From: Puniceicoccales bacterium
Lineage (GTDB): Bacteria > Verrucomicrobiota > Verrucomicrobiia > Opitutales > LL51
DNA length: 64,000 nucleotides
Reading direction: 5' to 3'
Assembly (NCBI GenBank): GCA_031257405.1
Contig: JAIROS010000002.1
Location: forward strand, 10,512-74,511
Position 1 is the first letter of the stretch; every line of letters starts with the position of its first letter. Below the pieces are notes generated by a model that had not been told where the DNA came from, ran no database searches, and saw only the letters and a list, made by a program, of their open reading frames with translations. Of this stretch, positions 4,237 through 28,632 are shown one piece after another. Both the position numbers and the translations under genes were made by a program.

Positions 4237-4243
4237 ATCCGCC

Positions 4244-4864: not shown

Positions 4865-5532
4865 CACGCCGCCCTCGCTTGCTTCCCCTTCTTCGCCTTC
4901 CGCAATACCACTAAACCCCCATTGGCCCCCGGTAAATTGCCCTTCAATAACAATAAATTTTTCTCCAAAATCAGCTCGACGATCTCCAAATTCTGTACCG
5001 TGCGCATCACACAACCATCGTGCCCCGGCATCTTGCGCCCCTTGTAAACGTGCCCAGGCCACTGGCGACAACCGTAAGACCCCCCGCGCCGGTGAAACAT
5101 CGACCCGTGCGAAGCCGGCCCACCAGAAAAATTGTGGCGCTTCATAACCCCTTGAAACCCTCGACCCTTCGTCCTCCCAATAACATCAATCCATTCACCA
5201 ATACTAAATATCGAAAAATCAATGGCGTCCCCTACCTTGTACGCACCTAAATCCGTAACGCGAAACTCCCGAAATCCCTCGCAAGTCCCTAAGCCCGCCT
5301 TCCCTAAATGCCCACGCACAGGCTCCGATAAATTAACCTCCTTGCAACGCCCATAAGCCAACTGAACCGCCCCATAACCATCCCTTTCCTCCTCCTTCAA
5401 TTGCGCAACAAAACACGGCACAGCCTCAACAACAGTCACCGGTACGCGGCACCGCTGCCCGTCAAATACCTGCGTCATCCCCACTTTTCTTCCTATAACT
5501 ATCCTCGCATCTCTCATAACTCTAAACGGCAA
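4864..5532 (-). CDS. rplC: 50S ribosomal protein L3
   Basis: 222-aa ORF with the L3 signature ([12 protein letters not shown]...; [26 protein letters not shown]). The true start may be the internal M at 5517. Confidence 0.94.
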
Positions 5533-5615
5533 ACCAGCTCTCCTATCAAAAATTCCAAATTTAGCTGTTTTCCTTTCTCTTCACCAAAAATAATCTGTCA
5601 AGAATATTCTAAATT

Positions 5616-5921
5616 TTAAATATTAATCAGTATTTCAACCCCGGCCGGCAAATTCAAACGCTTCAACGCATCGATCGTATCCGCCGTCGCCCCATGAATG
5701 TCAATCAAACGGTCGTGCTCACCCAACTCAAATTGATCCATCGCTTTTTTATGGACGTGCGGCGAACGATTTACCGTAAAACGCTCCCGGCGCGTCGGTA
5801 ACGGCACCGGCCCCACTACCCGCGCCCCAGACCGCTTGGCCGTCTCCACAATTTCTACCGCCGATTGATCCACCAAACGATAGTCAAAACTCTTCAATTT
5901 TATCCTAATTCTCTGCGCCAT
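5616..5921 (-). CDS. rpsJ: 30S ribosomal protein S10
   Basis: 101-aa ORF ([20 protein letters not shown]...[26 protein letters not shown]...H.RLIDI). Confidence 0.97.
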
Positions 5922-5936
5922 AAAACATTTCCTTCC

Positions 5937-8093: not shown

Positions 8094-8110
8094 CGTCCTT
8101 ACCCCACTCC

Positions 8111-8584
8111 TCACCAAACAAAATGCGCAAATGCCCGATTCGCCTGCGCCATCCGATACATCTCCGCCTTCTTCTTTACCACATTCCCCGTGTTGTTGTA
8201 AGCGTCAATAATCTCCTGCCCTAACGCCTCACGCATCGCCTTCCCCTTGCGCGACTTCGATGCCTCAACTAACCAACGAAAAACTAAGCTCTGCTGCCGA
8301 ATGTACGGCACTTCCACCGGCACCTGGTAAGTCGCTCCACCAACACGCCGACTCTTTACTTCCACCTTCGGCCGAGCATTCTCCAAAACAATCAGTAAAA
8401 GTTCAACGGGATCCCCCTTCGTCAACTCCTCACAAGCCTTCTCCAACGCCCCGTAAACAATCGAACACGCCAAAGAACGCTTCCCGCGCTCCATCACTAT
8501 ACTAATCAACTGCCCAATGAGGGTGCTGTTAAACCGCGGATCCTTTGCAAATTCACGTTTTTCGGCTCTTCTACGACGCGACAT
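8111..8584 (-). CDS. rpsG: 30S ribosomal protein S7
   Basis: 157-aa ORF (MSRRRRAEKRE...DPRFNS.L...GGATYQVPVEV...RAFAHF.W). Confidence 0.96.
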   Translation of the reverse strand: MSRRRRAEKREFAKDPRFNSTLIGQLISIVMERGKRSLACSIVYGALEKACEELTKGDPVELLLIVLENARPKVEVKSRRVGGATYQVPVEVPYIRQQSLVFRWLVEASKSRKGKAMREALGQEIIDAYNNTGNVVKKKAEMYRMAQANRAFAHFVW

Positions 8585-8598
8585 ATCTCCCTCTCAAC

Positions 8599-8982
8599 CT
8601 ATTTTTTCCCCGCCTTCGGCCGCTTCACACCGTACTTCGAACGACTCCTGCGCCGCTTCTCAACCCCAGAACAATCCAACGCACCCCGCACAATGTGATA
8701 GCGTACTCCCGGCAAATCCTTCACACGCCCACCGCGGACCAATACAATGCTGTGCTCCTGCAAACTATGGCCCTCGTCGGGAATGTAGGCAATCACCTCT
8801 ACCCCATTCGTAAGCCGCACCTTCGCTACCTTCCGAATGGCAGAATTCGGCTTTTTGGGCGTACGCGTCATCACCTGTACACATACCCCGCGCCGAAACG
8901 GATTCTCACGTAATGCCGGTGCCTTCGATTTTACATTTACATTGACACGCGGCGTCTTCACTAACTGATTAATAGTAGGCAT
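8599..8982 (-). CDS. rpsL: 30S ribosomal protein S12
   Basis: 127-aa ORF (MPTINQLVK...[51 protein letters not shown]). Confidence 0.98.
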
Positions 8983-9057
8983 CTAAAATTTATAATTTCA
9001 ATTTTTTGCTAAACTACGACTAAACTTCACCAAATCAAGCATTTATTTGAAAAAATA

Positions 9058-12000: not shown

Positions 12001-13203
12001 TACCGTGTGCACAAATCCTAACTCCCGTAACCGCCGAATAATAAACGGTTCAAACAGTACAAGCGCCATCTTTTTGGGCAGCCCACATTGATGCAATTTC
12101 AGCTCCGGACCAATCACAATCACCGAACGCCCACTGTAATCGACCCGCTTCCCTAACAAATTCTGCCGGAAACGCCCCTGCTTTCCCTTGAGCATGTCGC
12201 CCAAAGATTTCAGCGGACGATTCCCCGCCCCTAAAATCGCTTTTCCGTGGCGACCATTGTCAAATAGCGCGTCCACCGCCTCCTGCAACATCCGCATCTC
12301 ATTGTGTACAATCACATCCGGCGTTTTCAATTGCATCAAACTCTTCAAACGACCATTGCGATTAATTACCCGACGATACAAATCATTCAAATCACTCGTC
12401 GCAAAACGCCCCCCATCAAGCGGAACTAAAGGCCGCAAATCGGGCGGTAATACCGGCAGCGCCTCCAAAATCATCCACTCCGGACGTACCCCGGATCGTA
12501 AAAATCCCGATACCAATTTGAGCCGCCGAGCTAATTTTTTCTTCATCTGCTTCGAATTCGACGCGTACATCTCCTCCTGAATGTTGTAAATCATCTCCTC
12601 CAAATCCATCTCCGATAAAATCTCGCGAATCGCTACCGCCCCCATCTTCGCCACAAATGCATCGTCCCCATACTCCCCGCGTAACCGCTCGTACTCCTGC
12701 TCCAAAATTAATTGGCGCTTCTTCAGCGGCGTCATCCCCGGGTCCGTCACCATGTAACTCTCATAGTAAATCACTTTTTCAATGTCCCGCACCGACATGT
12801 CAAGGAATAATCCCAAACGGCTCGGTAAACTCTTTAAAAACCAAATGTGGGCAATGGGAACCGCTAACTCCACATGCCCCATCCGCTCGCGACGTACCCG
12901 CGAAAGCGTAATCTCTACCCCACAACGATCACAAATTACCCCCTTGTACTTAATGCGCTTGTACTTCCCACAAGCACACTCGTAATCCTTGGTGGGCCCA
13001 AATATCTTCTGGCAAAAAAGTCCGCCCGGCTCCGGCTTAAAAGTACGATAATTAATGGTCTCCGGATTCTTAATCTCCCCGCTCGACCAGGAACGAATCG
13101 CATCCGGCGAAGCAACCGATATGGCTACCATATCAAAGTCGCTACTCTGATCTAACCCCAAAAACTCCTTTACTTTCTCCGTACTCATGTCAAATTTTTT
13201 CAT
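9058..13203 (-). CDS. rpoC: DNA-directed RNA polymerase beta-prime subunit
   Basis: 1381-aa ORF with the catalytic [16 protein letters not shown] motif and the zinc-binding CxC...CxxC N-terminus. An alternative ATG at 13188 abuts the rpoB stop. Confidence 0.98.
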
Positions 13204-16200
13204 GCTCCGCGTAAATCTCGTTATGTTCCAAACGAATATCGAGACACAAACTCTGGATCTCCTTCATCAAAACATTAAACGACTGCGGCACGCCCGCTTG
13301 CAGCGATCGATCGCCCTTTACCAGCGATTCGTAAGCCTTCGTCCGCCCCTGGACGTCGTCGGATTTCACCGTCAACATCTCCTGCAGCGTGTAAGCCGCA
13401 CCGTACGCCTCAAGCGCCCAAACTTCCATCTCCCCAAATCGCTGCCCACCATACTGCGCTTTCCCCCCAAGGGGCTGCTGCGTAACCAGACTATAAGGCC
13501 CGACCGCACGCGCGTGAATTTTGTCCGCCACCAGGTGATTGAGCTTCATCATGTAAATATAGCCCACGACCACTTCCTGATCGAAGCGCTCCCCCGTTCG
13601 CCCGTCAAACAATACACTTTTACCGCTTTCGGGCAAATTCGCCTTCTCCAAATACTCGCGGATCTGCGACTCCGGCATCCCGTCAAATACGGGCGTCGCA
13701 ATTTTTATGCCCAATTTTTCACACGCCCAACCCAGATGCGTCTCCAAAACCTGCCCGACATTCATCCGACTCGGCACCCCAAGCGGATTCAAAATAATAT
13801 CGACGGGCGTCCCATCCGGTAAAAATGGCATGTCCTCGCTGTGCACAATCTTCGACACCACACCCTTATTGCCGTGGCGCCCCGCCATCTTATCGCCGAC
13901 GTGAATTTTTCGTTTATTGGCGACGTAAACTTTTACATTTTTAATCACGCCACTCTCCGCCATGTCGCCCGCTTCGATCGCCTCAATCCGCTGCAAACGC
14001 TCGTTTTCCAGGTCAATAAACTTCTGCCGATAGGCGTCAACAATCTCCAAAATGCGGTTCTTAACCGGCGAAGCGGGGATTTCCAACGCATCAAAACATG
14101 CCGCAATGCGGCGCAATAACGTCTTCGTAATCTTGCGATTCGCCGCGATAATAGTCTCGCCCGTGTTCCTATTGGAAATATCGAGGGGAATTTTCTCCCC
14201 AAGCAGTATGCTCGAAAGCGACTCCGTCAAATCATCCTGCAATTTGTCCAGCTGGCTCCGAAATTCTTCATTCGTCTTCTTTACAAAACGGCGCACGTCC
14301 GAATCAGTCATATCCTCTTTTTCATGGCCAATATTGCTGGAAAATTTTACATCCATTACAATTCCTTCACACCCCGGCGGCACCACTAGCGACGTGTCCT
14401 TCACATCCGACGCCTTTTCCCCAAAAATCGCACGCAATAACTTCTCCTCGGGGACCAAATCCGTTTCGCTCTTCGGCGTAATCTTCCCCACCAATATGTC
14501 GCCGGCCTTGACCTCCGCGCCAATGCGTACAACGCCATCGCGATTCAAATCCTTGAGCGCCAAATCACTCATATTGGGAATGTCGCGCGTGATCTCCTCC
14601 GCCCCTAACTTCGTGTCGCGCGCCACCACCTCAAATTCCTCGATGTGGACCGACGTAAAAATATCCTCCTTAACCAAACGATCACTTAAAATAATCGCAT
14701 CCTGGAAATTATAACCATTCCACGGCATAAACGCTACCAAAACATTGCGCCCCAACGCTAACTCGCCACAGTCCGTACCCGCACCGTCAGCTAATACGTC
14801 GCCCGCCTTGACCGCCTGCCCCTTGCTCACAATCGGCCGCTGATTAAAACAGGTCGTCGAGTTGGAACGGATGAATTTTCGCAAATTATAAACATAAATA
14901 CCCGCCGCTGGATTCCCCTTGGGATCCAATTTCTTGGGCATCGTACCATCCTTCGTCACCACAATGCGCGCCGCCACCACCGAAGCTACAACGCCATCCG
15001 CCGCCGCTAGCACCACACTTCTCGAATCCACCGCTACCCGCCGCTCAAGCCCAGTCCCTACAAAAGGCGCCTCCGGCGATAATAATGGTACCCCCTGCCG
15101 CTGCATATTCGACCCCATCAGCGCCCGCGACGTGTCATCGTGCTCCAAAAACGGTATCAAACCCGCCGCCACAGAAATCACCTGCTTCGGCGAAACATCC
15201 ATGTAATCAACCTGCGCCCCCTCAACTTCCAAAAATATATCCCGCTGCCGCGCCGCAATATTCCCCACCAAATTCCCGTCGCCGTCGATTTCCGAATTAG
15301 CCTGCGCAATTATACTATCCCCCTCATCGGTAGCATCCAAATAAACAATTTCCTCGGTCACCTTCCCGCCGCGTACCACCCGATAGGGCGTCTCAATAAA
15401 CCCAAATTCGTTGACGCGCGCAAACGTACTCAGGGAATTAATCAAGCCAATATTCGGCCCTTCCGGCGTCTCGATCGGACAAATGCGGCCATAGTGGGAC
15501 GCATGCACATCGCGCACCTCAAAACCCGCTCGCTCACGACTTAAACCACCCGGCCCTAACGCCGATAAACGCCGCTTGTGCGCCAATTCCGAAAGCGGAT
15601 TGATCTGATCCATAAACTGGGATAGCTGGCTGCGTGTGAAAAAATCGCGAATCGCTCCCATGAAAATTTTCGGATTGACCAGCTTCTGCGGAACAATCGT
15701 ATCCACGCTGTTGTCAAATAGCGCCATCCGCTCCCGAATGAGACGCTCCATCCGCCCTAACCCAGAACGACACTGGTTGACCAGCAGCTCCCCGACATTC
15801 CTGATGCGGCGATTCCCCAAATGATCAATATCGTCCGTGTACTCCTCGCCCTTCTTCAGACGGCATAAAAATTTCGTCGCCTCGACGATATCCACCGTAT
15901 CGATCAGGCGATTCTCCAAATCCTTATTTAATTTCAGGCGCTGATTCATTTTTTTCCGCCCCACGCGCCCCAGATCGTAGCGCTTCCGCTCAAAAAATAA
16001 ACGCGACATCGTCCCATTCGCATTATTCGCCGTCACCGGCTCGCCCGGCCGCAAACGTTTGTAAATTTCGCGTAAAGCATCCTCCGTATTTTTCGCCGGA
16101 TCCCGCTTCAGCGTGCGAATAATTAAACCATCATCCGCCGCCACATTGACCACCTCCAAATGATCAATGCCCGCCATCTCAAACGCCTGCAGTAACCCCT

Positions 16201-16966
16201 TCGACAACGCTTCGTGGGCCCGCGCCAATACAATCCCCTCCTTCGCATCCACCACATCGTCGATCAAAACATAGTTCGCTAACTTAGCGTTAACCCTAAA
16301 AGATGTCAATTTTTTATTCTCGATTCTATAAAAAAGATTTAAAATTTCCTGATCCGAACCATTGCCAAATGCCCGTAAAAGCGTCGTCAATAAAAATTTT
16401 CGGCGGCGGCGGCGGCGATCCAAATACACGTAGAGCAAATCATTTTGGTCAAATTGCACCTCAAGCCAAGTCCCGCGATCCGGTATGATCCGAAAAGCGT
16501 GGAGCAATTTCCCACTCGCATGCAACGTCTCCTCAAAACAAATCCCCGGCGAACGATGTAACTGGCTGACCACTACCCGCTCCGCACCATTAATTACAAA
16601 CGATCCGCGCCCGCCCATCATCGGCAATTCACCAAAATAAATCTCCTCCTCGCGCATCTCCCCGCCCTCGCATAGCCGCAAAGTGACGTACAGCGACCCC
16701 GCATAAGTCGTCCCGTCGCGCACGCAAAAATCCTCATTGTGCCTGGGCTCGCAGACCCGAAAGGTAACATACTCCAACCGACACTTCCCATCGTAACTCT
16801 CAACGGGAAAAAAATCACGGAACGCGCTCTCTAAGCCAATATTTTTCCGACTCCCGGCGGCCACATCGCTCTGTAAAAATTCCCGAAACGAATTGATCTG
16901 ATTTTCTATGAAATCAGGCGGACAAATCACCTCCCTGAGCCTACCAAAATTAATCCTATCAGTCAT
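13190..16966 (-). CDS. rpoB: DNA-directed RNA polymerase beta subunit
   Basis: The ORF track gives 13190..17047. Homology starts at [13 protein letters not shown] (ATG at 16966). Motifs include [24 protein letters not shown]. Confidence 0.97.
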
Positions 16967-17076
16967 ATAATACGCAATCCTTGTTAACGAAAAATTTACA
17001 CGCAAAAACAGCCTTGTGAATTCCGTACGTCCTCCACAAAACTGCACAAACCCAATTCAATAAAAACACAATCCAA

Positions 17077-17460
17077 TTACTTGAGTTCCACTTTCGCGCC
17101 CGCCGCTTCCAATTTTTTCTTCATCTCCTCGGCGTCGGCTTTGGAAATTCCTTCCTTGACAGGTTTCGGCGCCCCCTCGACGAGCTCTTTGGCCTCCTTT
17201 AAACCAAGCCCCGTAATCGCCCGCACCTCCTTGATGACGTTAATTTTGTTGTCCCCAGCGGACGTCAAAATGATGTCAAATTCCGTTTTTTCCTCGACGA
17301 CCTCGGCCGCCCCACCCCCAACGGGTACGGCAACCGCCGCCACCGGAGCACTCGCACTCACACCCCATTTTTCCTCCAGGGCCTTTACCAGTCCGGCGAT
17401 CTCCAAAACAGATTGCGCACTTAACCACTCTATAACTTGATCCTTTGTAATACTTGTCAT
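17077..17460 (-). CDS. rplL: 50S ribosomal protein L7/L12
   Basis: 127-aa ORF with an Ala/Gly hinge and the C-terminal domain [54 protein letters not shown] Shine-Dalgarno sequence lies upstream. Confidence 0.97.
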
Positions 17461-17550
17461 TTTCTATCCTCCCGAAACAGATTTAGCGGCGAACATCGCC
17501 ATTTAAGAGGAAGCCTCCTAAACCCATTTCTTAAAAAAATTTTAAAAATA

Positions 17551-18069
17551 TTAGTCCCCTCTCGCCCTCGCCTGCAAAACATTGACCATGCCCTGCGGAA
17601 CGGCATTTAACACGCATACCAACTGCTGCGCCGGCGCGTTAAATAATGCTAAAATCTGCGCGCGCAATACATCAAGGGACGGCAACTCAGATAATGCCCT
17701 AATTTCGCTGACCTCGAGCGGTACTTTGGCCAATACACCGCCCTTAATGCCCATTTTTTCCTCATTATCCTTGGAAAATTTGCATAAAACTTTCGCCACA
17801 CCCGAAGGATCTTCGCCACCCATCACAATCGCCGTATGCCCCTCAAAATACCCGTCGCTCAGCCCCAAACAACCATTCGCTTCAAGCGCAAGCTTCAAAA
17901 TGCTATTCTTAACAACGTGGCACTCCGCCCCATTCTGACGTAAATTCTTGCGAAGCGCAGAAATAGCCGCGACCGTCACTCGGGAAAAATCCGCGAAATA
18001 AACATAGTCCGACTTGCAAAGATGATTGAAAACTTCCTCAACTAAAAACTTCTTCTCCGCCCTCATCAC
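17551..18069 (-). CDS. rplJ: 50S ribosomal protein L10
   Basis: 172-aa ORF in the conserved position between L1 and L7/L12, with L10-like sequence (F.DF..VTV..IS.LR..LR..G....VVKN). Confidence 0.9.
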   Translation of the reverse strand: MMRAEKKFLVEEVFNHLCKSDYVYFADFSRVTVAAISALRKNLRQNGAECHVVKNSILKLALEANGCLGLSDGYFEGHTAIVMGGEDPSGVAKVLCKFSKDNEEKMGIKGGVLAKVPLEVSEIRALSELPSLDVLRAQILALFNAPAQQLVCVLNAVPQGMVNVLQARARGD

Positions 18070-18076
18070 TCTCCTC

Positions 18077-18775
18077 CTAAACCGCCCCGTAAATGCCCTG
18101 CCCTAACTTAATGCCCGGCGTCATGGTCCCGCTTAACGAAATATTTTTTATGAAATTACCCGAAATACTCGCAGGCTTGGCCCTCAAAATCGCATCAATC
18201 GCCGCCCCTACGTTCTCAACCAACTTCTCAGCCATAAATGACCGCTTCCCCACTACAACTGCCATGTTCGCCGTCTTGTCCATCTTAAATTCTACGCGCC
18301 CAGCCTTAATATCCCGCACCGCTCCAGCAATGTCCTCCGAAACCGTCCCCGACTTCGGATTCGGCATCACCCCACGCGGCCCAAGAATCCGCGCCACATT
18401 CCGTACCTGCCGCATCGCAGAAGGCGTCGCAATCGCTACGTCAAAATCTAACCACCCCGACTGAACCTTCTCTAAAAAATCTTCCAACCCAGCAAAATCC
18501 GCCCCCGCCATAATCGCCTCCTCCGGCTTCTCCGTAAATACGAGAACCCGCACCCGCTTCCCACTCCCATTCGGTAAACTCACTACCCCGCGCACCATCT
18601 GATCACTCTGCTTCGGATCAACCCCAAGATGAATCGATAACTCAACCGTCTCGTCAAAACGCGCCCGCGGCATCCGCCCAAGTAACGCAATGGCCTCCTC
18701 AATGGAAAAACATTGGCCCAAATCACCAACTTCCCTCCCCTTCTCTTGACGCCTACTCCGCTTTTTCATAAACAA
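18077..18775 (-). CDS. rplA: 50S ribosomal protein L1
   Basis: 232-aa ORF with L1 motifs (FDETVELSIHLGVDPKQSDQ.VRG.V.LP.G.GK..RV.VF; LGPRG.MPNPK.GTV). Confidence 0.96.
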   Translation of the reverse strand: MFMKKRSRRQEKGREVGDLGQCFSIEEAIALLGRMPRARFDETVELSIHLGVDPKQSDQMVRGVVSLPNGSGKRVRVLVFTEKPEEAIMAGADFAGLEDFLEKVQSGWLDFDVAIATPSAMRQVRNVARILGPRGVMPNPKSGTVSEDIAGAVRDIKAGRVEFKMDKTANMAVVVGKRSFMAEKLVENVGAAIDAILRAKPASISGNFIKNISLSGTMTPGIKLGQGIYGAV

Positions 18776-18841
18776 ATTATAAATAGGGCTAGGGCAATTT
18801 TCACCACTGTCAAGCTATTTCTAAATATTTTTTCCATATAT

Positions 18842-19267
18842 TTACGCCACAACCTCAATCCCCATACTCCGCGCCGTCCCCATAACCATCCTCACCGCCG
18901 CTTCCAAATCCTCCGCATTGAGATCCGCCCGCTTCGTCTCCGCAATCTCCTCCAACTGCCGACGCGTCACCTTCCCAACCTTCGCTCGATTGGGTACCGC
19001 CGACCCCTTGCTAACCCCCGCCGCCTTCTGCAATAATACCGACGCCGGCGGCGATTTTAACTCAAACGTAAACGAACGATCCGCATATACAGAAATAACC
19101 GCCGGAATAATCATCCCCGCCATGTCCTTCGTCCGCGCATTGAATTCCTTGCAAAAACCCATAATGTTCACCCCAGCCGAACCTAACGCCGGCCCTACCG
19201 GTGGCGCCGGATTCGCCGCACCAGCCGGCAACTGTAATTTAATTTGCTTTACCACTTTTTTCGCCAT
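18842..19267 (-). CDS. rplK: 50S ribosomal protein L11
   Basis: 141-aa ORF ([34 protein letters not shown]). Confidence 0.97.
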
Positions 19268-19271
19268 AACT

Positions 19272-19844
19272 TTACCCTCTCATTAACTCCGCTTGCCAAA
19301 ATTCTAACTCAACGGGCACGTCCCGCCCAAATAAAGATACCGAAATTTGCATCTTCCCATTCTCCAAATCAATCGCCATTACCTCGCCTATCGACTCCAC
19401 AAACGGCCCATCCGTCACCTTTACCCGGGCGCCAACCCCAAATTCTACCCGCTGCACCGGCGCCGCTCCAATGCTGGCCTTCGCCTGATCCAAAATCCGT
19501 ACCACCTCCTCCTCCCGCAGCGGAACCGGCCGCTCGCCACCTACAAAATTCAATACCCCCTGGGCATTGCGCACGAAATACCACGGCGATTGGAGTAACT
19601 TTTCCTCCTCATCGTACAACTTCATCCGCACAAATACGTACCCCGGATAAAATTTTTTTACACGATTGTAACGTTTGCCATTCTTGATCTCCACTACCCG
19701 CTCCGACGGCACCAAAACTTCGTCGATCGCAACGCCTTCGTGGACCGCAAATTTGTCGAGATACGCCTTTACTTTGGCCTCCTGATTGGAAAAAACCTGC
19801 AGAGCGTACCAACGCGAATCCTGTACCGAAAGCACCATAACCAT
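19272..19844 (-). CDS. nusG: Transcription termination/antitermination factor NusG
   Basis: 190-aa ORF with an NGN domain ([15 protein letters not shown]) and a C-terminal KOW (G..V.V.DGPF....G.V). It sits in the slot between secE and rplK. Confidence 0.94.
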
Positions 19845-19847
19845 AAA

Positions 19848-20066
19848 CTAATCCCCTAGCCGGCCCCGTACCCAACCACTGAAAAGATCAAAAACGTGGA
19901 GCAATGAAAAATCCACAATGGAAACGTAAATGCCCAAAAGCGCCATCCCAACCAAAACAACGGCCACATAGTGGCGCATTTCCTTCTGGTTCGGCCAAGA
20001 CGCCTTCTTCAGCTCGCCAACCATCTCGCCCCAAAATATACCTAACTTTCTTAATGGATTTTTCAT
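19848..20066 (-). CDS. secE: Preprotein translocase subunit SecE
   Basis: 72-aa ORF with one C-terminal transmembrane helix (HYVAVVLVGMALLGIYVSIVDF) and ELKK..WP motif, immediately upstream of nusG. Confidence 0.88.
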   Translation of the reverse strand: MKNPLRKLGIFWGEMVGELKKASWPNQKEMRHYVAVVLVGMALLGIYVSIVDFSLLHVFDLFSGWVRGRLGD

Positions 20067-21639: not shown

Positions 21640-21884
21640 ATTTTTTTAATTGTCGAGTTTTCTCCGCCCCATTGGGCGATTTACGGCATAAAAAATCAAA
21701 AAAAGCAGATAAAGCATTTAAAAATAGAATAAAAAAATATCTCCAATCCAAAACAGTGGAGACTTCAAATCCGGAGCAGAAAATTTTTATCCGCCCCGGA
21801 TGAATTTTATTTAAATAAGTTTTACTTAATATTTAGATTTAGATGCCAGAAGCCCCCCTTCTGAAAGCCCCAATTCCGACCTAT
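21640..21884 (-). repeat. Ankyrin-cassette copy 0 (3'-flank of ank1; degenerate promoter half)
   Basis: Aligns by eye with the four other cassettes. It carries the hairpin ccggagcag...ccgccccgg (21771..21799), a CCATTGG box (21669..21675), and ttgtcgag in place of ctgtcaag. Confidence 0.8.
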
Positions 21885-22712
21885 CTAACGCCAAAAAAAT
21901 CCACCAGGAAAGAAATCACGTAGCCTCTCAAAATATGAAGCAGTATCTTCTTTATTACGCTCTTCGTTTGTTTTCCCTCCGTTCGCACGCAATAGAGCCA
22001 CTAAATCTTTCACTACTTCGTCCTTCAATCCCTTTTTATTCTGAAAAACCAAATCTATCGGGGTCTGGCCAGTATAAATGGGAGCCATTGAGGCTAAAAC
22101 TAGACCGGGAATATTATTAGTCCTAGTATTTACATCTGCGCCATTGTCCAGCAAAAATCGAACAACATTTTTGTGGCCATTCTCCGCGGCATAATGCAGA
22201 GGCGTTCGCCCTTGATTGTCCCTAGCATTCACTGGAATGTTGTTTCTAAGGACAAGGAATGTAACAATATCAAACTGGCCTCCCTCCGCGGCATAATGCA
22301 GCGCGGTCTTGCCCTGACCATCCTTAATTTTCTCATCTGCGCCATTGTCCAGCAAAAATCGAACAACCTTTTTGTGGCCATTCTCCGCGGCATAATGCAG
22401 CGCGGTCCTGCCCTCATTAAGACCACCTTTCGCCCCAGCATTCACATCTGCGCCATTGTCCAGCAAAAATTGAACAACATTTTTGTGGCCATTCTTCGCG
22501 GCATAATGCAGCGCAGTCTTGCCGTTGTTATCCCAATTTTTCACATTTTTGTCAGACATATTTCTCACGACACATTCGCAGTCGCCTTTTTTTGCGGCTT
22601 GAAAGAACCAGTCATCTCGAAACTCTTCACTCCCCAGAAGATAATTTGCACCTAAGAAGTAACTGCCCACTACCATATATTTAATCATACTTTTTTTATC
22701 TAACTTATTCAT
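21885..22712 (-). CDS. Ankyrin-repeat protein, paralogue 1 (leader type A: MNKLDKK...)
   Basis: 275-aa ORF with repeated 33-aa units (GKTALHYAAKNGHKNVVQFLLDNGADVNA...). It has an N-terminal Ser/Gly-rich hydrophobic leader and an AAAGGAAAA Shine-Dalgarno sequence upstream. Confidence 0.92.
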   Translation of the reverse strand: MNKLDKKSMIKYMVVGSYFLGANYLLGSEEFRDDWFFQAAKKGDCECVVRNMSDKNVKNWDNNGKTALHYAAKNGHKNVVQFLLDNGADVNAGAKGGLNEGRTALHYAAENGHKKVVRFLLDNGADEKIKDGQGKTALHYAAEGGQFDIVTFLVLRNNIPVNARDNQGRTPLHYAAENGHKNVVRFLLDNGADVNTRTNNIPGLVLASMAPIYTGQTPIDLVFQNKKGLKDEVVKDLVALLRANGGKTNEERNKEDTASYFERLRDFFPGGFFWR

Positions 22713-23036
22713 AATATTTTCCTTTCGGTAACCGAACTACCAAGCACATTAATTTCAATCTGTCAAGAACTTTTTTTTTATTTTTTTTGAAAAATTTAGC
22801 ACAGCCCGAAAATTCCCCGCTCCATTGGGCGAGTTGCGGTACAAAAATCAGAAAAATATTAAAAAACAAAATAAAAAACATCCCCAATCCAAAACGGCGG
22901 AGACTTCAAAACCGGAGCAGAGAATCTCTCCCCGCCCCGGATAAATTTTATTTAAATAAGTTTTATCTAATATTTAAATATATAAGTTTTACCTAATATT
23001 TAGGCGTTAATAAGCTCCGGCAGTACGTCTCTGTGC
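22713..23036 (-). repeat. Ankyrin-cassette copy 1 (between ank2 stop and ank1 start)
   Basis: Contains the hairpin (22912..22940), a CCATTGG box (22822..22828), a T-rich tract, and TTGACA (22761..22766) with TTGGTA (22738..22743). Confidence 0.85.
22738..22766 (-). promoter_or_regulatory. Putative promoter of ank1 (TTGACA-N17-TTGGTA)
   Basis: A perfect -35 hexamer preceded by an A-tract. The block TTGACAGATTGAAATTAATGTGCTTGGTA is identical upstream of ank4, and similarity stops right after TTGGTA. Confidence 0.5.
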
Positions 23037-23819
23037 CTAGGATTTAAAACCAGGCAGTTTCCGAAACCAGCTCCGCCAGCTCCTTTCTTGCAAGACTTCA
23101 GCGCCTGTTTTCGCTCCGCGTGCCAGCAATAGAGCCTTTATTTGTTCACGCCGGGCCCGATCCCGATTCTCACACTCCTCGACCAAATCTAGCGCGGTCT
23201 TGCCCTTATCCCGGCCACCAATCACCGTAACATTCACATTAATTCCAGGTGCAGTTAGCAACATTTCAACGATCTCTGTTTTGCCCCATCTTACGACATC
23301 ATGGAGCACGGTATAGCCATAGATATCCGCAGCATTCACATTAATGCCTCGTCTGCCTAGCAACAATCTAACGGTCTCTTTGTTCCTCTTGCGGAACTCT
23401 GTTACGGCCAAAGAAAGCGCGGTATAGCCACTATTGTCCTTAGCATTCACATCGGCGCCTGCGCCTAGCAATAAGTTAGCGTTATCTACGCGGCCATACA
23501 TTGCGGCCCAATGGAGCGGGGTCCTGTTCCATCTATCAGCCCTATCCCTAGCATTCACATCGGCGCCTGCGCCTAGCAACAATTTAACAACTTCTATATT
23601 ATCCCACTGTACGGCACAATGAAGCGCGGTCTCGCCGCCAATTTCACTCCTAGCATTCACATCAATGCCTCCGATTAACGCCGCCCGAACACCTGCTACA
23701 TCGCCCTTTGCTGCGGCTTGATGGAGCGGTGTCCATAGCCCCAGAAGACAATTTGTACTTAATAGGCAACTACTCGTTGCCACACATTGAACTATATTTT
23801 TTATATCTGCGTTTCGCAT
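23037..23819 (-). CDS. Ankyrin-repeat protein, paralogue 2 (leader type B: MRNADIKNIVQCVATS...)
   Basis: 260-aa ORF with ankyrin units (TPLHWAAMYGRVDNANLLLGAGADVNAKD...). Confidence 0.92.
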   Translation of the reverse strand: MRNADIKNIVQCVATSSCLLSTNCLLGLWTPLHQAAAKGDVAGVRAALIGGIDVNARSEIGGETALHCAVQWDNIEVVKLLLGAGADVNARDRADRWNRTPLHWAAMYGRVDNANLLLGAGADVNAKDNSGYTALSLAVTEFRKRNKETVRLLLGRRGINVNAADIYGYTVLHDVVRWGKTEIVEMLLTAPGINVNVTVIGGRDKGKTALDLVEECENRDRARREQIKALLLARGAKTGAEVLQERSWRSWFRKLPGFKS

Positions 23820-24134
23820 AACATATTGTACAATAATACATTTTTAACACTTGGCAAGAATTTTTTTATTTTTTTTTGAAAAATTTTAGCGTAACCTGAA
23901 AAATTTCCCCGTTCCATTGGGCGAGTTGCGGTACAAAAATCAGAAAAATATTAAAAAACAAAATAAAAAAAATATCCCCCATCCAAAACGGCGGAAACTT
24001 TAAAGCCGGAGCAGAAAAATTTTCCCACCCCGGACGAATTGTATCTAAATAAGTTTTACTTAATATTTAAACATATAAGTTTTACCTAAACTCAGGCATC
24101 AATCAACTCCTTTAATGAGCCTTCGCCGCCTCTA
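23820..24134 (-). repeat. Ankyrin-cassette copy 2 (between ank3 stop and ank2 start)
   Basis: Near-identical to copy 3 over about 250 bp. It carries the hairpin (24006..24033) and a CCATTGG box (23914..23920). Confidence 0.85.
23825..23857 (-). promoter_or_regulatory. Putative promoter of ank2 (TTGCCA ... TGTACAAT extended -10)
   Basis: The minus strand reads aaaaaaattcTTGCCAagtgttaaaaatgtattatTGTACAATatgttATG. The -10 lies only 5 nt from the ATG and no Shine-Dalgarno sequence is present. Confidence 0.4.
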
Positions 24135-24989
24135 TTATTCTTCTGAATCTAAATATGCTGCTGCTGCTTCTTCTGCTTCTTTTCGCTGCAGCCGCTTCTG
24201 CCTCCGCAAGCTCAGTATCCGTTTTTGCTCCGCGTGTCTATGCAATAGACCCACTACTTGGGTATGATCTCTCTCATAAGCCAAATCTAGCGCAGTTTTG
24301 CCTCTGTCATCCTTAGCATTCACATCGGCATCTTTCTTTAGCAACAATTCAACAACATCTACGTGACCCTTCGCCGCGGCCAAATGGAGCGCAGTCTCGC
24401 CTTTCTCGCCTTTAGCATTTACATTTGCGCCTGCGTTTATCAATAATTTGACGGGGACTTCGAGGCCCACTACTGCGGCGTTATGAAGCGCCGTCCAGCC
24501 CTTTTCCTCGCCATTACTCACCGTAGCATTCACATTAATGCCAGGTGCAGCTAGCAACAGTTTAACAGCCTTTTTTTGGCCCCAGTCTGCGGCAGTATGG
24601 AGAGGAGTGTAGCCATTTTCGTTCGTAACATTCACGTCCGCTCCTGCGTCTATTAACATTCCAACGACCCTTCCGTAGCTGTCAAATGCTGCGGCCAAAT
24701 TGAGCGCGGTATCGCCACCATCAGTCTTAGCATTCACATCAATGTCGGGCATATCTAGTAATATTTTAACGATCTTTGGGGATCTCGGTGTGACCAAATG
24801 GAGCGCTGTCCAGCCCTCTTCATTCTTAGCATTCACATCAATGCCTCCGATTAACGCCGCCCGAACACCTGCTAAATCGCCATTCGCTGCGGCTTTATGG
24901 AGCGCGGTAGTCCCCAGACAACTTACACTTAAGAAGCAACCACTCGTTGCCACACATTGAACTATATTTTTTATATCTGCGTTTCGCAT
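24135..24989 (-). CDS. Ankyrin-repeat protein, paralogue 3 (leader type B)
   Basis: 284-aa ORF. The first 16 residues are identical to ank2, followed by ankyrin units (GWTALHLV..., GETALHLAAAKGHVDVVELLLKKDADVNAKD). Confidence 0.92.
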   Translation of the reverse strand: MRNADIKNIVQCVATSGCFLSVSCLGTTALHKAAANGDLAGVRAALIGGIDVNAKNEEGWTALHLVTPRSPKIVKILLDMPDIDVNAKTDGGDTALNLAAAFDSYGRVVGMLIDAGADVNVTNENGYTPLHTAADWGQKKAVKLLLAAPGINVNATVSNGEEKGWTALHNAAVVGLEVPVKLLINAGANVNAKGEKGETALHLAAAKGHVDVVELLLKKDADVNAKDDRGKTALDLAYERDHTQVVGLLHRHAEQKRILSLRRQKRLQRKEAEEAAAAYLDSEE

Positions 24990-25338
24990 AACATATTGTA
25001 CAATAATACATTTTTAACACTTGGCAAGAATTTTTTTATTTTTTTTGAAAAATTTTAGCGTAACCTGAAAAATTTCCCCGTTCCATTGGATGAGTTGCGG
25101 TACAAAAAACAGAAAAAAACCTAAAAACAAAATAAAAAAAATATCCCCCATCCAAAACGGCGGAAACTTTAAAGCCGGAGCAGAAAAATTTTCCCACCCC
25201 GGACGAATTGTATCTAAATAAGCTTTACTTAATATTTAAACATATAAGTTTTACCTAAACTCAGGCATCAATCCGCTCCTTCAAGACGTCGCGCCTCTGC
25301 TTCAAGTTCTTCAGCTCTCGCCTGAAGCCCTTGTGCCT
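24990..25338 (-). repeat. Ankyrin-cassette copy 3 (between ank4 stop and ank3 start)
   Basis: Same module as copy 2, with the hairpin (25175..25202) and a CCATTGG box (25092..25098). Confidence 0.85.
24995..25027 (-). promoter_or_regulatory. Putative promoter of ank3 (same TTGCCA / TGTACAAT block as ank2)
   Basis: Sequence identical to the ank2 upstream block. Confidence 0.4.
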
Positions 25339-26736
25339 CTATTCTTCTTCTTCTTCAAGTTCAGCGCCTCTTTTCGCTCCACGTGCCAGCAATAGATCCC
25401 TTATTTGGGTATAATTTCCACGATTAGCAAAATCTAACGCAGTCTCGCCATATTCAACCTTAGCATTCACATCGGCATCTTTCTCTAGCAACAATTTAAC
25501 AACATCTACGTGGCCCTTCGTCGCGGCCACATGGAGCGGCGTATAGCCATTTTTATTCTTAGCATTCACATCTAGGCCGTCCGCAGCTAGCAACGCTTCT
25601 ACGGCCTTTACGTAGCCCTTCTGTAGGGCTAAATCTAACGCTGTCTTGCCATCTTCAGCCGTAGCATTCACATCGGCATCTTTCTCTAGCAACAATTGAA
25701 CAACATCTACGTAGCCCTTCTGTAGAGCTAAATCTAACGCAGTCTCGCCATATTTATTCTCAGCATCCACATCAATGCCGGGTGCAGTTAGCAACAATTT
25801 AACGAAATTCAAATTGTCATTCATTGCGGCATAATGGAGCGCCGTATAGCTTGTGTTATCCTTAGCATTCACATCTGCATTTTTTTTTAGTAACAATTGA
25901 ACAACCTCTACGTAGCCATTCAGTGCGGCCTTAATGAACGCTGTCTCGCCATATTTATCTTTAGCATTCACATCTGCATTTTTTTCTAGCAACGCTTTAA
26001 CAACATCTACGTGGCCCTTCGTCGCGGCCACATGGAGCGCCGTCTTGCCTAATTTATCCTTAGCATTCACCACAATGTTGGATACAGCTAGCAACGATTT
26101 AACAACATCTACGTGGCCATTCTCTGCGGCCAAATGGAGCGCGGTCTGGTCCAAGAAATTCACAACATTCACATTTGCGCCGAAATACATAAGAGATTTA
26201 GCAACAGCTACGTGGCCATTCTCTGCGGCATAATGGAGCGGCGTATAGCGGTAGCTATCCTTAATATCCACTGCTGCGCCTCTAATGGGGATAAAGTATC
26301 TAACAATATCCAAGTGGCCCATCTTTGCGGCCAAATGGAGCGCCGTTTTGCCTCCGTTATCCCTAGCATCCATATTTGCCTCTAATTTTAGCAACTTTTT
26401 TACGATATCGCAGTGACCATTTTCTGCGGCATAATGGAGTGCCGTCTTACTCTTACCCTTACCATCAGTCACCTTAGCATTCACATCTATGCCGTAATTC
26501 ATAAGAAATTCAACGACATTCAAACGGTTATTCGCTGCAGCCTCAATGAACGCGTTCTGGATTTTTTCGTTCTTACCATTTATCTCAATGAGGGATATTG
26601 CATTTTCAACGCCTTCTAAATCGCCATCTCTTGCGGCCTCAATGAGCGCGGTAGCCCCCTGAAGATAACTTGCACCTAAGAGGTAACTACTCACTACCAA
26701 ACCTTTAATTATATTTTTTTTATCTAACTTATTCAT
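25339..26736 (-). CDS. Ankyrin-repeat protein, paralogue 4 (leader type A)
   Basis: The ORF track gives 25339..26781. The ATG at 26736 (MNKLDKKNIIKGLVVSSYLLGASYLQG) matches the ank1 start and has the same Shine-Dalgarno sequence. It contains about 12 ankyrin units. Confidence 0.92.
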   Translation of the reverse strand: MNKLDKKNIIKGLVVSSYLLGASYLQGATALIEAARDGDLEGVENAISLIEINGKNEKIQNAFIEAAANNRLNVVEFLMNYGIDVNAKVTDGKGKSKTALHYAAENGHCDIVKKLLKLEANMDARDNGGKTALHLAAKMGHLDIVRYFIPIRGAAVDIKDSYRYTPLHYAAENGHVAVAKSLMYFGANVNVVNFLDQTALHLAAENGHVDVVKSLLAVSNIVVNAKDKLGKTALHVAATKGHVDVVKALLEKNADVNAKDKYGETAFIKAALNGYVEVVQLLLKKNADVNAKDNTSYTALHYAAMNDNLNFVKLLLTAPGIDVDAENKYGETALDLALQKGYVDVVQLLLEKDADVNATAEDGKTALDLALQKGYVKAVEALLAADGLDVNAKNKNGYTPLHVAATKGHVDVVKLLLEKDADVNAKVEYGETALDFANRGNYTQIRDLLLARGAKRGAELEEEEE

Positions 26737-27010
26737 AATATTTTCCTTTCGACGACGACATACCAAGCACATTAATTTCAATCTGTCAAGAACTTTTTTT
26801 TATTTTTTTGAAAAAAATTTAGCACAGCCTGAAAATTCCCCGCTCCATTGGGCGAGTTATAATACATAAAATCAGAAAAAATATTTAAAAATAGAATAAA
26901 AATATCACTCATTACATTAATTTCAATCTGTCAAGCTTTTTTTATATTTTTTTGAAGAAATTTTCCCGCTCCATTGGGTAAGTTGCGGTACAAAAAACAG
27001 AAAAAAACCT
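26737..27010 (-). repeat. Ankyrin-cassette copy 4, with two promoter modules in tandem
   Basis: TTGACA at 26784..26789 is the functional ank4 copy, and a second one lies at 26929..26934 with no ORF behind it. There are two CCATTGG boxes (26845..26851 and 26971..26977). Confidence 0.8.
26761..26789 (-). promoter_or_regulatory. Putative promoter of ank4 (TTGACA-N17-TTGGTA)
   Basis: Identical 29-nt block to the ank1 promoter. Confidence 0.5.
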
Positions 27011-27205
27011 AAAAACGAAATGAAAGATGGCTTTTCGGCCTTTTAATCGAAGAATTTTCGGTAAAAATATCCATTAAATTTTATCAATAAAACACATCTC
27101 TCGAGTGTGCTTTTTGTCGGCGACTTCAGCCGCAACCCATCGCTTTTCGGCCCCTTAGTCGAAGAATTTTCTTGCCGCCACCAATTATTTTATATTTTTT
27201 TGACC

Positions 27206-28159: not shown

Positions 28160-28545
28160 CTAAAAATCCCCCATTGTCAAGACGTTTTTCGGAAATGTTT
28201 TGAAAACTAAATATCTCGGCCTGGAAAAATAAAAAATAACACCAGCGAAAATTAGAATTCCAAACGCGGCATTCTCCCCACCCTCTGCACCTAGCCAATC
28301 AGAAAAATTTCCAATTGTCAAGGCGTTTTTTGGAAATATTTTAAAAATTAAATATTTCGATTCGGGAAAGTGAAAAATAACACCAGCGGAAATTAGAATT
28401 CCAAACGCGGCATTCTCCCCGCCCCATGTACATAGCCAATCAGAAAAATTTCCAATTGTCAAGGCGTTTTTTGGAAATATTTCAAAAATTAAATATCTCG
28501 ATTCGGAAAAGTGAAAAATCAAACAATCGCACAATACTTACCCAA
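28160..28545. repeat. Tandem repeat, 141-bp period, about 2.7 copies
   Basis: The anchor ttgtcaa recurs at 28174, 28315 and 28456. Each unit carries a minus-strand TTGACA-N17-TTGGCT plus GGGGCGGGGAGAATGCCGCGTTTGGAATTC. Confidence 0.9.
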
Positions 28546-28632
28546 TCCGCTAAACTTTTTCACCTTATCCCAAAATTTCATACTTTACTATTGCCAAAAT
28601 ATATAAAATTCTTCCCATCTCCCATAACCCCG

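What the first reader, a model, noticed from the sequence alone, without database searches (positions are those of the whole stretch)
22632..26736. A shared atypical N-terminal leader links the ankyrin proteins and the 504-aa orphan
The N-termini are:
- ank1: MNKLDKKSMIKYMVVGSYFLGANYLLG
- ank4: MNKLDKKNIIKGLVVSSYLLGASYLQG
- ank2: MRNADIKNIVQCVATSSCLLSTNCLLG
- ank3: MRNADIKNIVQCVATSGCFLSVSCLG
- orphan at 57798: MNNILKSQMACLCIIGSSSVLLGEG

All share a short basic head, then (I/M)..(C/Y)(V/L/M)(V/A/I)(V/T/I)(G/S)S..(L/F)L(G/S)...L.G. This h-region is rich in Ser, Gly and Cys and only weakly hydrophobic, so it is not a textbook Sec signal. It could be a lineage-specific export or sorting signal that marks a family of exported host-interaction proteins.
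Basis: inference. Interest (0 to 1): 0.55.

Follow-up and report, generated by a model that had tools for sequence, protein, structure and literature searches.

The report
Conserved signal-peptide cassette on ankyrin genes
Four tandem ankyrin-repeat genes of an uncultured verrucomicrobial bacterium share a 27-residue N-terminal leader that recurs on at least 28 genes of related genomes and looks like an ordinary secretion signal kept as a family-specific cassette; the 504-residue orphan does not carry it.

Summary
The window comes from a Puniceicoccales (Verrucomicrobiota) MAG. The four ankyrin (ANK) N-termini are truly homologous, at DNA level too. They sit on a promoter-plus-leader 5' cassette that is homogenised between paralogues.

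The leader is not private to this window. I counted 28 leader-bearing genes, and all but one of the named ones come from Puniceicoccales MAGs. The consensus is M-x-K-L-[ND]-x-K-N-I-[IV]-K-Y-x-A-x-[SG]-[SG]-C-L-L-S-x-x-x-L-x-G|[AT]. Twenty-five of the 28 carry ANK cargo, two carry coiled-coil cargo, and one is a fragment.

- Conservation drops sharply after residue 28.
- Between genomes the leader evolves with omega of about 0.2-0.45.
- AlphaFold leaves residues 1-27 outside the ANK fold.

The layout is a basic head, an uncharged core of 15-17 residues, then L-x-G|A/T. That is a Sec-type signal peptide. The Gly/Ser/Cys-rich, weakly hydrophobic core is also seen in this lineage's autotransporter and in a second ANK family, so it is lineage style and not evidence of a new pathway.

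The orphan scores about 0 bits against both leader HMMs and has no homologue anywhere. It shares only generic signal-peptide character.

Export itself is inferred: SignalP could not be run. A lipoprotein reading of Cys18 is disfavoured but not excluded.

The parts
22632..22712 (-). ank1 leader, codons 1-27 (MNKLDKKSMIKYMVVGSYFLGANYLLG). Class A variant with Tyr at position 18.
   Evidence: D17; 34.0 bits against the outside-only HMM
21885..22712 (-). ank1 gene, 275 aa, ANK repeats (NCBI MDR0590302.1)
23739..23819 (-). ank2 leader, codons 1-27 (MRNADIKNIVQCVATSSCLLSTNCLLG). Class B variant with Cys at positions 12, 18 and 24.
   Evidence: D17; 49.4 bits
23037..23819 (-). ank2 gene, 260 aa, ANK repeats
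24912..24989 (-). ank3 leader, codons 1-26 (MRNADIKNIVQCVATSGCFLSVSCLG), one residue shorter than the others
   Evidence: 38.6 bits. AlphaFold pLDDT is 43-50 for the first 20 residues (64 for 21-30), and the confident ANK fold starts at residue 29.
24135..24989 (-). ank3 gene, 284 aa, ANK repeats
26656..26736 (-). ank4 leader, codons 1-27 (MNKLDKKNIIKGLVVSSYLLGASYLQG), class A. The start is the ATG at 26736, preceded by GAAAGGAAAATATT, not the upstream TTG at 26781.
   Evidence: D17; 41.5 bits
25339..26736 (-). ank4 gene, 465 aa, ANK-repeat protein (at least 10 Ank/Ank_2 stretches matched)
23820..24112 (-). 5' cassette of ank2 (terminator remnant, A/T run, TTGCCA -35, TATTGT -10). It is 92-100% identical to the ank3 cassette, and the identity continues through the leader to about +66.
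   Evidence: (D13, D18)
24990..25282 (-). 5' cassette of ank3, the partner of the ank2 cassette
22713..22835 (-). 5' cassette of ank1 (TTGACA -35, AAGGA ribosome-binding site). It is 87-90% identical to the ank4 cassette from -123 to +56.
   Evidence: (D7)
26737..26859 (-). 5' cassette of ank4, the partner of the ank1 cassette
   Evidence: (D7)

Best explanation
The leader is a family-specific, conserved Sec-type signal peptide. It travels with its promoter as a 5' cassette.

Proposed mechanism (inferred):
1. The basic head (M-x-K-L-x-x-K-N-I-I-K) and the uncharged core (Y-V-A-I-S-G-C-L-L-S-S-x-x-L-x-G) take the pre-protein to SecYEG.
2. Signal peptidase I cuts after L25-x-G27.
3. An ANK-repeat protein, or more rarely a coiled-coil protein, is released into the periplasm.
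4. From there it may reach the outside or a host, for example by a type II system or vesicles.

Shown:
- The leaders are homologous.
- They are restricted to a clade of uncultured Puniceicoccales.
- They are under purifying selection between genomes.
- They end at a sharp boundary.
- They are modular with respect to cargo.
- Within a genome they are kept alike by duplication or gene conversion of the cassette.

Inferred: export, the cleavage site, the final destination and any host association.
For: Family and lineage:
- A profile search of 1.84 billion representatives gave 35 hits. About 20 of them match the leader from residue 1.
- The named ones are Puniceicoccales MAG proteins.
- Counting the loci, I found 28 leader genes.
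- Four further contigs carry leader genes in ANK arrays at the same island. The island is flanked by the epimerase (L014, L017, L018) and by tuf (L017). L019 shows the same ANK gene arrangement, but its flanking ORF has no Pfam hit.

Boundary: column information is about 2.5 bits over positions 1-28 and mostly below 1 bit (1.4 at most) from position 29.

Selection: between genomes pS is 0.54-0.79 and pN 0.26-0.36, so omega is 0.2-0.45.

Modularity:
- The distance from leader to first ANK repeat varies from 1 to about 100 residues.
- Contig L020 has two leader genes with coiled-coil cargo next to recJ.
- AlphaFold gives pLDDT 43-50 for residues 1-20 and above 90 from residue 29.

Sec-likeness:
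- Net charge of the head is +1 to +3.
- The uncharged run is 17-30 residues long.
- The same simple rule flags the window's autotransporter, lipoprotein and pseudopilin. Among the ORFs it scanned, it flags no protein of known cytoplasmic function.
- Position -1 is Gly in 23 of 26 leaders, -3 is Leu in 23 of 25, and +1 is Ala or Thr in 21 of 26.
- Type-2 ANK proteins in the same island carry plain signal peptides that have the same G-S-C/F motif in mid-core and then V-x-A|T sites.
- SecE (19848-20066) and a T2SS-G-like pseudopilin (63207-63653) are encoded in the window.

Precedent: 78% of the 98 ANK proteins of Chromulinavorax have predicted signal peptides (PMC6561590).

Cassette: ank2 and ank3 are 92-100% identical from -293 to +66, then 52-63%. 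ank1 and ank4 are 87-90% identical from -123 to +56.
Against: - No dedicated predictor (SignalP, LipoP, Phobius) could be run. My rule is a crude heuristic.
- The core is only weakly hydrophobic in the window copies.
- Leu at -3 is tolerated but is not the canonical residue.
- The strongly conserved Cys18 after [IVMF]-[SG]-[SG] looks like a lipobox.
- Within this genome, class A versus class B leaders show more non-synonymous than synonymous change (omega 2.5-3.9). That rests on very few sites and is not significant, but it could mean relaxed constraint here.
- The high conservation of the head (K-N-I-I-K-Y) is more than Sec targeting needs.
- No complete proteome was available, so enrichment was tested on only about 100 kb.
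Confidence: 0.6

Rival explanations
1. The leader is a lipoprotein signal peptide. [IVMF]-[SG]-[SG]-C18 is a lipobox, Lgt and LspA process the protein at Cys18, and the ANK protein is lipid-anchored. Tyr18 variants such as ank1 and ank4 would instead be soluble.
For: - Cys18 is the most informative column after Met1 (4.56 bits; C in 20 of 26 and Y in 5; the single other residue reflects a register slip in one row), and it is preceded by small residues.
- ank2 and ank3 pass a PS51257-like rule at C18.
- Some members also have S-G-C at position 24.
Against: - In 25 of 27 members Lys or Arg at position 11 leaves only 6 uncharged residues before Cys18. These fail the PS51257-like rule, and all members fail the G+LPP pattern.
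- Cys18 is replaced by Tyr in six of the 28 genes (ank1, ank4, three in L014, one in L020).
- Conservation and hydrophobic character continue for ten residues after Cys18, up to G27. That fits a core plus a type I site.
- Type-2 ANK leaders swap the equivalent Cys for Phe.
Confidence: 0.15
2. The similarity says nothing about export. The N-terminus is conserved because the promoter-plus-5' coding cassette is copied and homogenised. Alternatively, the A-rich first codons serve translation initiation, or the segment is an uncleaved membrane anchor or a domain that acts in the host.
For: - The cassette is homogenised within the genome.
- Within the window, synonymous divergence is low and non-synonymous divergence is high.
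- Class B genes have a -10 element ending 11 nt before the ATG and no ribosome-binding site.
Against: - Between genomes synonymous sites are near saturation while the amino acids are kept.
- A clade-wide upstream module was not detected: the window's CCAATGG motif is absent from the related loci.
- The tripartite charge and hydrophobicity pattern is kept even where residues change.
- A core of about 15 residues is short for a stable transmembrane anchor.
Confidence: 0.15
3. One reading: an atypical, non-Sec, lineage-specific sorting signal that also tags the 504-aa orphan and uses a dedicated export route.
For: - The head of the leader is unusually conserved.
- The orphan has a signal-peptide-like N-terminus with an I-G-S-S core.
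Against: - The orphan scores about 0 bits with both HMMs.
- The orphan has no homologue among 5.8 billion proteins and no Pfam or NCBIfam hit.
- The Gly/Ser/Cys-rich core is shared by the autotransporter and the type-2 ANK signal peptides.
- No dedicated secretion genes are seen next to the arrays.
Confidence: 0.05

Closest known systems
Phytoplasma SVM signal sequence (Pfam PF12113; effectors such as SAP11, SAP54, TENGU). Comparison from my own knowledge; only the context of SVM/PMU clusters and Sec-secreted effectors was read, in PMC3743221.
   Same: A host-restricted bacterium keeps one conserved Sec signal peptide on many otherwise divergent, effector-like small proteins. The conserved part ends at the cleavage site.
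   Different: The sequences are unrelated: no PF12113 hit. Here the cell is diderm, so Sec export reaches only the periplasm. The cargo is mostly one repeat family (ANK). The genes lie in a fixed chromosomal island, not in mobile units.
Paralogous surface-protein families with a shared promoter-plus-leader block: Borrelia erp/ospE/ospF/elp 'upstream homology box', Mycoplasma vlp/vsp genes (my own knowledge, not checked here)
   Same: The 5' non-coding region and the signal-peptide coding region are almost identical among paralogues while the mature parts diverge. Recombination or gene conversion maintains the block.
   Different: Those are lipoprotein leaders with a canonical lipobox, and they serve antigenic variation. 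Here the lipobox context fails in most members, and no switching mechanism is seen.
Signal-peptide-bearing ANK expansions of intracellular bacteria of protists, e.g. Chromulinavorax destructans (PMC6561590)
   Same: There are many ANK-repeat proteins with predicted Sec signal peptides, and they are proposed to act on a eukaryotic host.
   Different: No conserved, family-specific leader is reported there. Here the leader itself is the conserved element. A host is not documented for this MAG.
Motif-bearing signal peptides: YSIRK-G/S, ESPR, KxYKxGKxW
   Same: A recognisable conserved motif sits inside an otherwise ordinary Sec signal peptide and is shared by a class of exported proteins.
   Different: There is no sequence relation: no Pfam hit to any of them. 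Those occur in Firmicutes or in proteobacterial autotransporters. The window's own autotransporter does not carry the ANK leader.
Dot/Icm (type IV) ANK effectors of Legionella and Coxiella
   Same: They are bacterial ANK-repeat proteins thought to act on host proteins.
   Different: Those use C-terminal signals and have no N-terminal signal peptide. The NCBIfam hits here cover only the ANK repeats, at 14-190 bits against cut-offs of 450-1400.

Membership tests
Sec / signal peptidase I signal peptide | Positively charged n-region | tested here: met
   Net charge before the uncharged run is +3 (ank1, ank4), +1 (ank2, ank3) and +3 (family consensus).
Sec / signal peptidase I signal peptide | Uncharged hydrophobic h-region of about 7-15 residues or more | tested here: met
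   The uncharged run is 17-30 residues. Its maximum 8-residue KD mean is 1.7-2.25 for the window copies and 2.4 for the consensus. That is the low end of E. coli controls (2.25-3.2) and equal to the window's autotransporter (2.24).
Sec / signal peptidase I signal peptide | Small residues at -1 and -3 before the cleavage site | tested here: inconclusive
   Position -1 is Gly in 23 of 26. Position -3 is Leu in 23 of 25, which is tolerated but not canonical. Position +1 is Ala or Thr in 21 of 26.
Sec / signal peptidase I signal peptide | Positive call by a trained predictor, or demonstrated cleavage or export | not testable with these tools
   SignalP, Phobius and LipoP are not available, and there are no experiments.
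Bacterial lipoprotein (signal peptidase II) signal | Lipobox [LVI][ASTVI][GAS]-C with an invariant Cys | tested here: not met
   [IVMF]-[SG]-[SG]-C is present in most members, but Cys18 is Tyr in ank1, ank4, three L014 genes and one L020 gene.
Bacterial lipoprotein (signal peptidase II) signal | At least 7-10 uncharged residues between the n-region and the Cys (PROSITE PS51257-type rule, G+LPP pattern) | tested here: not met
   C18 passes in 2 of 27 members (ank2, ank3). G+LPP passes in 0 of 27. The controls Lpp, Pal and the window lipoprotein pass both (patterns from memory).
Tat signal peptide | Twin-arginine motif S/T-R-R-x-F-L-K | tested here: not met
   No leader contains RR, and there is no Pfam TAT_signal hit.
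Described conserved signal-peptide families (Pfam YSIRK_signal, ESPR, KxYKxGKxW_sig, SVM_signal) | Match to the family HMM | tested here: not met
   hmmscan of ank1-4 and of 25 members against Pfam-A lists only ANK families plus two weak unrelated hits. NCBIfam lists nothing over the leader.
Ankyrin-repeat proteins (Pfam clan Ank) | ANK repeats above the gathering score | tested here: met
   Ank_2 scores 133-489 bits in ank1-4. Of 25 members scanned, 23 have ANK.
The leader family defined here (KNIIKY...[SG][SG]C-LLS...L-x-G) | Match, starting at residue 1, to an HMM built without the window sequences | tested here: met
   ank1-4 score 34-49 bits. The orphan 57798-59312 scores -0.4 bits and so is not a member.

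The most novel reading that the evidence does not exclude
The leader may be more than a Sec ticket. Its unusually conserved head (K-N-I-I-K-Y) and the Cys/Tyr positions at 12, 18 and 24 could form a dedicated sorting code.

One version: a Cys18 to Tyr switch, which is a single transition, toggles paralogues between a lipid-anchored, surface-displayed form and a soluble released form. Another version: the leader is a tag read by a clade-specific step that carries ANK and coiled-coil effectors across the outer membrane into a eukaryotic host cell or nucleus.

This clade would then have its own recognisable 'effector signal'. That signal would allow complete effector catalogues to be read from MAGs.
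Probability: 0.12. Interest if true: 0.65.

Novelty: new member of a known kind. Interest (0 to 1): 0.38.

Why it matters
The clade is uncultured, and only MAGs exist for it. Its relatives include intranuclear and cytoplasmic symbionts of protists (PMC8204192).

A 28-residue HMM that picks out one class of probably exported ANK and coiled-coil proteins, with no false hits in about 100 kb, is a practical handle. It can list candidate host-interaction proteins and follow their turnover in a conserved island between the epimerase and tuf.

It is also a clean example of a promoter-plus-signal-peptide cassette kept uniform while the cargo diverges.

It does not point to a new secretion mechanism.

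Tried and rejected
1. Orphan as a family member: rejected.
2. Word-indexed protein search with short leader profiles: nearly useless. It found no candidate, then two hits. Searches were parameter errors.
3. Scan of genome contigs with the window's intergenic motif TTYYCCGYYCCATTGGRYRAKTT: 13 single matches in unrelated taxa, about what chance gives. The MAG itself is not in that collection.
4. Scan of metagenome contigs with a back-translated leader pattern: 0 matches, although the pattern hits L014 four times and L015 once. Those samples are therefore not held there, and I did not spend the second scan.
5. The CCAATGG intergenic motif as a clade-wide regulatory site: rejected. It is absent from L014 and L017-L020.
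6. Leader as the N-terminal cap of the ANK fold: rejected, because of the variable linker length and the low AlphaFold confidence.
7. Known RNA element in the cassette: Rfam finds only tRNAs.
8. Environment or host of the samples: the accession numbers are in no held paper, and no paper combines Puniceicoccales with ankyrin.
9. Gapped upstream identity between genomes: the measure was not informative, so I dropped it.
10. Exact look-up of ank1 in the contig index: not on record. EF-Tu gave only a 1.4-kb contig.


Full report
**What is in the window.** The contig belongs to a MAG labelled Puniceicoccales bacterium. Its proteins include MDR0590301 (EF-Tu), MDR0590302 (ank1) and MDR0590333 (the orphan), and the contig is 80.7 kb long.

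Four ANK-repeat genes lie in tandem on the minus strand, between an NAD-dependent epimerase gene and tRNA-Thr/tuf:
- ank1, 21885-22712
- ank2, 23037-23819
- ank3, 24135-24989
- ank4, 25339-26736

For ank4 the start is the ATG at 26736, behind GAAAGGAAAATATT, as in ank1.

**Check of the observation.** The four leaders are homologous and not merely alike.
- Their DNA forms a repeat family: ank1 and ank4 are 90% identical, ank1 and ank2 66% (D17).
- A four-sequence HMM scanned against all 1655 possible N-termini of the window finds only these genes.
- The orphan at 57798-59312 scores 0.4 bits in that scan.
- With an HMM built only from leaders found outside the window, ank1-4 score 34-49 bits. 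The best unrelated N-terminus scores 4.6 bits and the orphan -0.4 bits.
- The orphan has no homologue at all and no Pfam or NCBIfam match.

**A wider family.** I searched 1.84 billion representative proteins with a profile of the leader plus the first few ANK residues. This gave 35 hits, and about 20 of them align from residue 1. The rest are eukaryotic-type ANK proteins that match only the ANK columns or sum many repeats.

The consensus is M-[NK]-K-L-[ND]-x-K-N-I-[IV]-K-Y-[VI]-A-[IVM]-[SG]-[SG]-C-L-L-S-[ST]-x-x-L-x-G-[AT].

Named sources are Puniceicoccales MAGs, and the others are unnamed JGI or ENA contigs. One contig is labelled Holosporaceae. It has the same gene arrangement as the Puniceicoccales islands, so it is probably mis-binned.

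Three fetched contigs are syntenic with the window:
- L014: ribF, uvrD, epimerase, then five leader-ANK genes, one of them frameshifted.
- L017: epimerase, two ANK genes on the other strand, one leader-ANK gene, then tuf-secE-nusG-rplKAJL-rpoBC.
- L018: the same plan, with two leader-ANK genes.

Of 25 members scanned, 23 have ANK repeats.

A fourth contig, L020, carries two consecutive leader genes downstream of recJ whose cargo is charged coiled coil, not ANK. The search profile contained twelve ANK columns, which favours ANK cargo. Even so, several hits matched the leader alone.

In all I counted 28 leader genes: 25 ANK, two coiled-coil and one fragment.

**Evidence that the leader is a functional unit.**
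- Column information averages about 2.5 bits over positions 1-28 and falls mostly below 1 bit (1.4 at most) from position 29.
- The linker to the first ANK repeat ranges from one residue to about a hundred.
- AlphaFold2 on ank3 gives pLDDT 43-50 for residues 1-20 (a lone helix at 3-21) and above 90 from residue 29.
- Between genomes, Nei-Gojobori counts over 26 codons give pS 0.54-0.79 against pN 0.26-0.36, so omega is 0.2-0.45.

Within the window the picture differs. The promoter, 5' UTR and leader form a homogenised block.
- ank2 and ank3 are 92-100% identical from -293 to +66, and 52-63% further in.
- ank1 and ank4 are 87-90% identical from -123 to +56.
- Class A versus class B leaders show few synonymous and many non-synonymous differences (omega 2.5-3.9). 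With 2-3 synonymous changes this is not significant.

The similarity inside the window is therefore mainly shared recent ancestry of a cassette. The argument for function comes from the comparison between genomes.

**What kind of signal it is.** The leader has a basic head, an uncharged run of 15-17 residues and a conserved L-x-G followed by Ala or Thr. That is the layout of a Sec signal peptide with a type I cleavage site.

I applied a simple rule: positive head, at least 12 uncharged residues, and a maximum 8-residue KD mean of at least 1.7.
- It flags the four ANK genes.
- It also flags the autotransporter (50869-54861, PF03797), a 535-aa protein, a lipoprotein, the T2SS-G-like pseudopilin and the orphan.
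- Among the ORFs it scanned, it flags no protein of known cytoplasmic function. Its only other hits are an antisense ORF and an ORF with a doubtful start.

- The autotransporter has ...LLTVLGLGCSFLVGAAHG|T.
- Six 'type-2' ANK proteins of the related islands have leaders such as MDGKKLLISILIGSCLSTSIVCA|TS and MNGKRLLRGVLFGSFFSASIACA|TS. In these the G-S-C/F motif sits in mid-core and a canonical site follows.

This also explains why the orphan looked similar: it shares the general style, not the family.

SecE is encoded in the window.

A literature precedent exists. In Chromulinavorax, 78% of the 98 ANK proteins carry predicted signal peptides (PMC6561590).

**The lipoprotein alternative.** Cys18 is highly conserved and is preceded by [IVMF]-[SG]-[SG], which reads like a lipobox. 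Four points argue against that reading.
- Lys or Arg at position 11 leaves six uncharged residues before Cys18. Only ank2 and ank3 pass a PS51257-like rule, and none pass G+LPP.
- Six leaders have Tyr18.
- Conservation runs on to G27.
- Type-2 leaders exchange the equivalent Cys for Phe.

I keep this rival at 0.15.

**Comparison with known systems.** No Pfam or NCBIfam model covers the leader, and YSIRK, ESPR, KxYKxGKxW, SVM_signal and Tat motifs are absent.

In how it works, it most resembles three things:
- the phytoplasma SVM signal;
- the shared promoter-plus-leader blocks of Borrelia erp/elp and Mycoplasma vlp/vsp genes (these first two rest on my own knowledge);
- signal-peptide-bearing ANK expansions in intracellular bacteria of protists (PMC6561590).

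It is an undescribed member of the kind 'family-specific conserved signal peptide on effector-like paralogues'. I found no paper on Puniceicoccales ANK proteins.

Relatives in the 'Nucleococcus cluster' are intranuclear or cytoplasmic symbionts of protists with genomes of about 1 Mb (PMC8204192). I could not establish that this MAG belongs there, nor what its habitat is.

**Limits.**
- No signal-peptide predictor, no complete proteome and no experiments were available.
- The selection estimates rest on 26 codons and ten DNA sequences.

**Verdict.** The finding is real for the ANK genes and wrong for the orphan. The leader is best read as an ordinary Sec-type signal kept as a clade-specific cassette. 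It is of moderate interest.

Noticed in passing
window 26958-27025 and 21656-21723: There are two extra copies of the intergenic module (core CCGYYCCATTGG) with no ANK gene behind them. One lies upstream of the ank4 cassette and one lies between ank1 and tRNA-Thr. They look like remnants of lost array members. The motif occurs six times in the window and is absent from the related loci.
   Followed up: partly
window 57473-57791: About 160 nt are tandemly duplicated at 95% and 85% identity. The unit comprises the 3' end of the hemN-like radical-SAM gene plus the A/T-rich promoter-like stretch behind it. The second copy supplies the promoter-like TTGCCA...TATAAT just upstream of the orphan gene.
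   Followed up: partly
window 57798-59312 (+): This is a 504-aa ORFan. Its N-terminus looks like a signal peptide (MNNILKSQMACLCIIGSSSVLLG), followed by a Pro/Gln/Asn-rich stretch with two ERKQL motifs. It has no homologue among 5.8 billion proteins and no Pfam or NCBIfam hit.
   Followed up: partly
window 28162-28584: A 141-nt unit is repeated about 2.5-3 times in tandem (88% matches), between the epimerase gene and tRNA-Pro. Each unit contains a TTGTCAAGG stretch that resembles the -35 region of the ANK cassettes (D15/D16, 86).
   Followed up: no
window 1-20000: GC skew is very strongly negative (-0.29 to -0.40 in 2-kb windows) over the ribosomal-protein and rpoBC region. It weakens to about -0.03 near 50-58 kb. 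The ANK island is also lower in G+C (0.43 against about 0.50).
   Followed up: no
window 48188-49225 (+): rpoN appears split. One ORF carries the Sigma54 core-binding domain (48188-48790) and a separate ORF carries the DNA-binding domain (48845-49225). This could be a frameshift, a pseudogene or an assembly error.
   Followed up: no
window 23830-23857 and 25000-25027 (-): The ank2 and ank3 genes have a TTGCCA-16 nt-TATTGT promoter-like site whose -10 element ends only 11 nt before the ATG. They have no Shine-Dalgarno sequence, so these mRNAs may be nearly leaderless. ank1 and ank4 have an AAGGA site instead.
   Followed up: no
leader positions 12, 18 and 24 (window 22641-22679, 23748-23786 and equivalents): Tyr in class A corresponds to Cys in class B at three positions spaced six residues apart, except that ank4 has Gly at position 12. 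Where Tyr faces Cys, the change is a single A/G transition in the second codon base. Across the family these columns hold mostly Y, C or H, with occasional other residues.
   Followed up: partly
window 43485-45092 (-) and 50869-54861 (+): Two further probably exported proteins are present. One is a 535-aa protein with no Pfam hit, whose likely start is MVRNKTIKLRIYSIGLLLSMGYGKAVA. The other is a 1330-aa autotransporter (PF03797). Neither carries the ANK leader.
   Followed up: partly
L014 10001-10994: The fifth leader gene of the related array is interrupted after 40 codons. The ANK body continues in another frame (10098-10994), so this is a frameshift or pseudogene.
   Followed up: partly
L019 (JGI 3300042643, NCBI MDR1334421.1): The contig is binned as Holosporaceae, but it has the Puniceicoccales island layout: two type-2 ANK genes on one strand and a leader-ANK gene on the other. 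This is probably mis-binning, though transfer between co-resident symbionts is not excluded.
   Followed up: partly
L017 1529-3608, L018 6522-8373, L019 1282-3519: A second family of ANK proteins sits in the same island. Its signal peptide is different and more ordinary (M-D-x-K-x-L-[KR]-x-V...G-S-[CF]...A|T). It scores only 4-5 bits with the leader HMM.
   Followed up: partly
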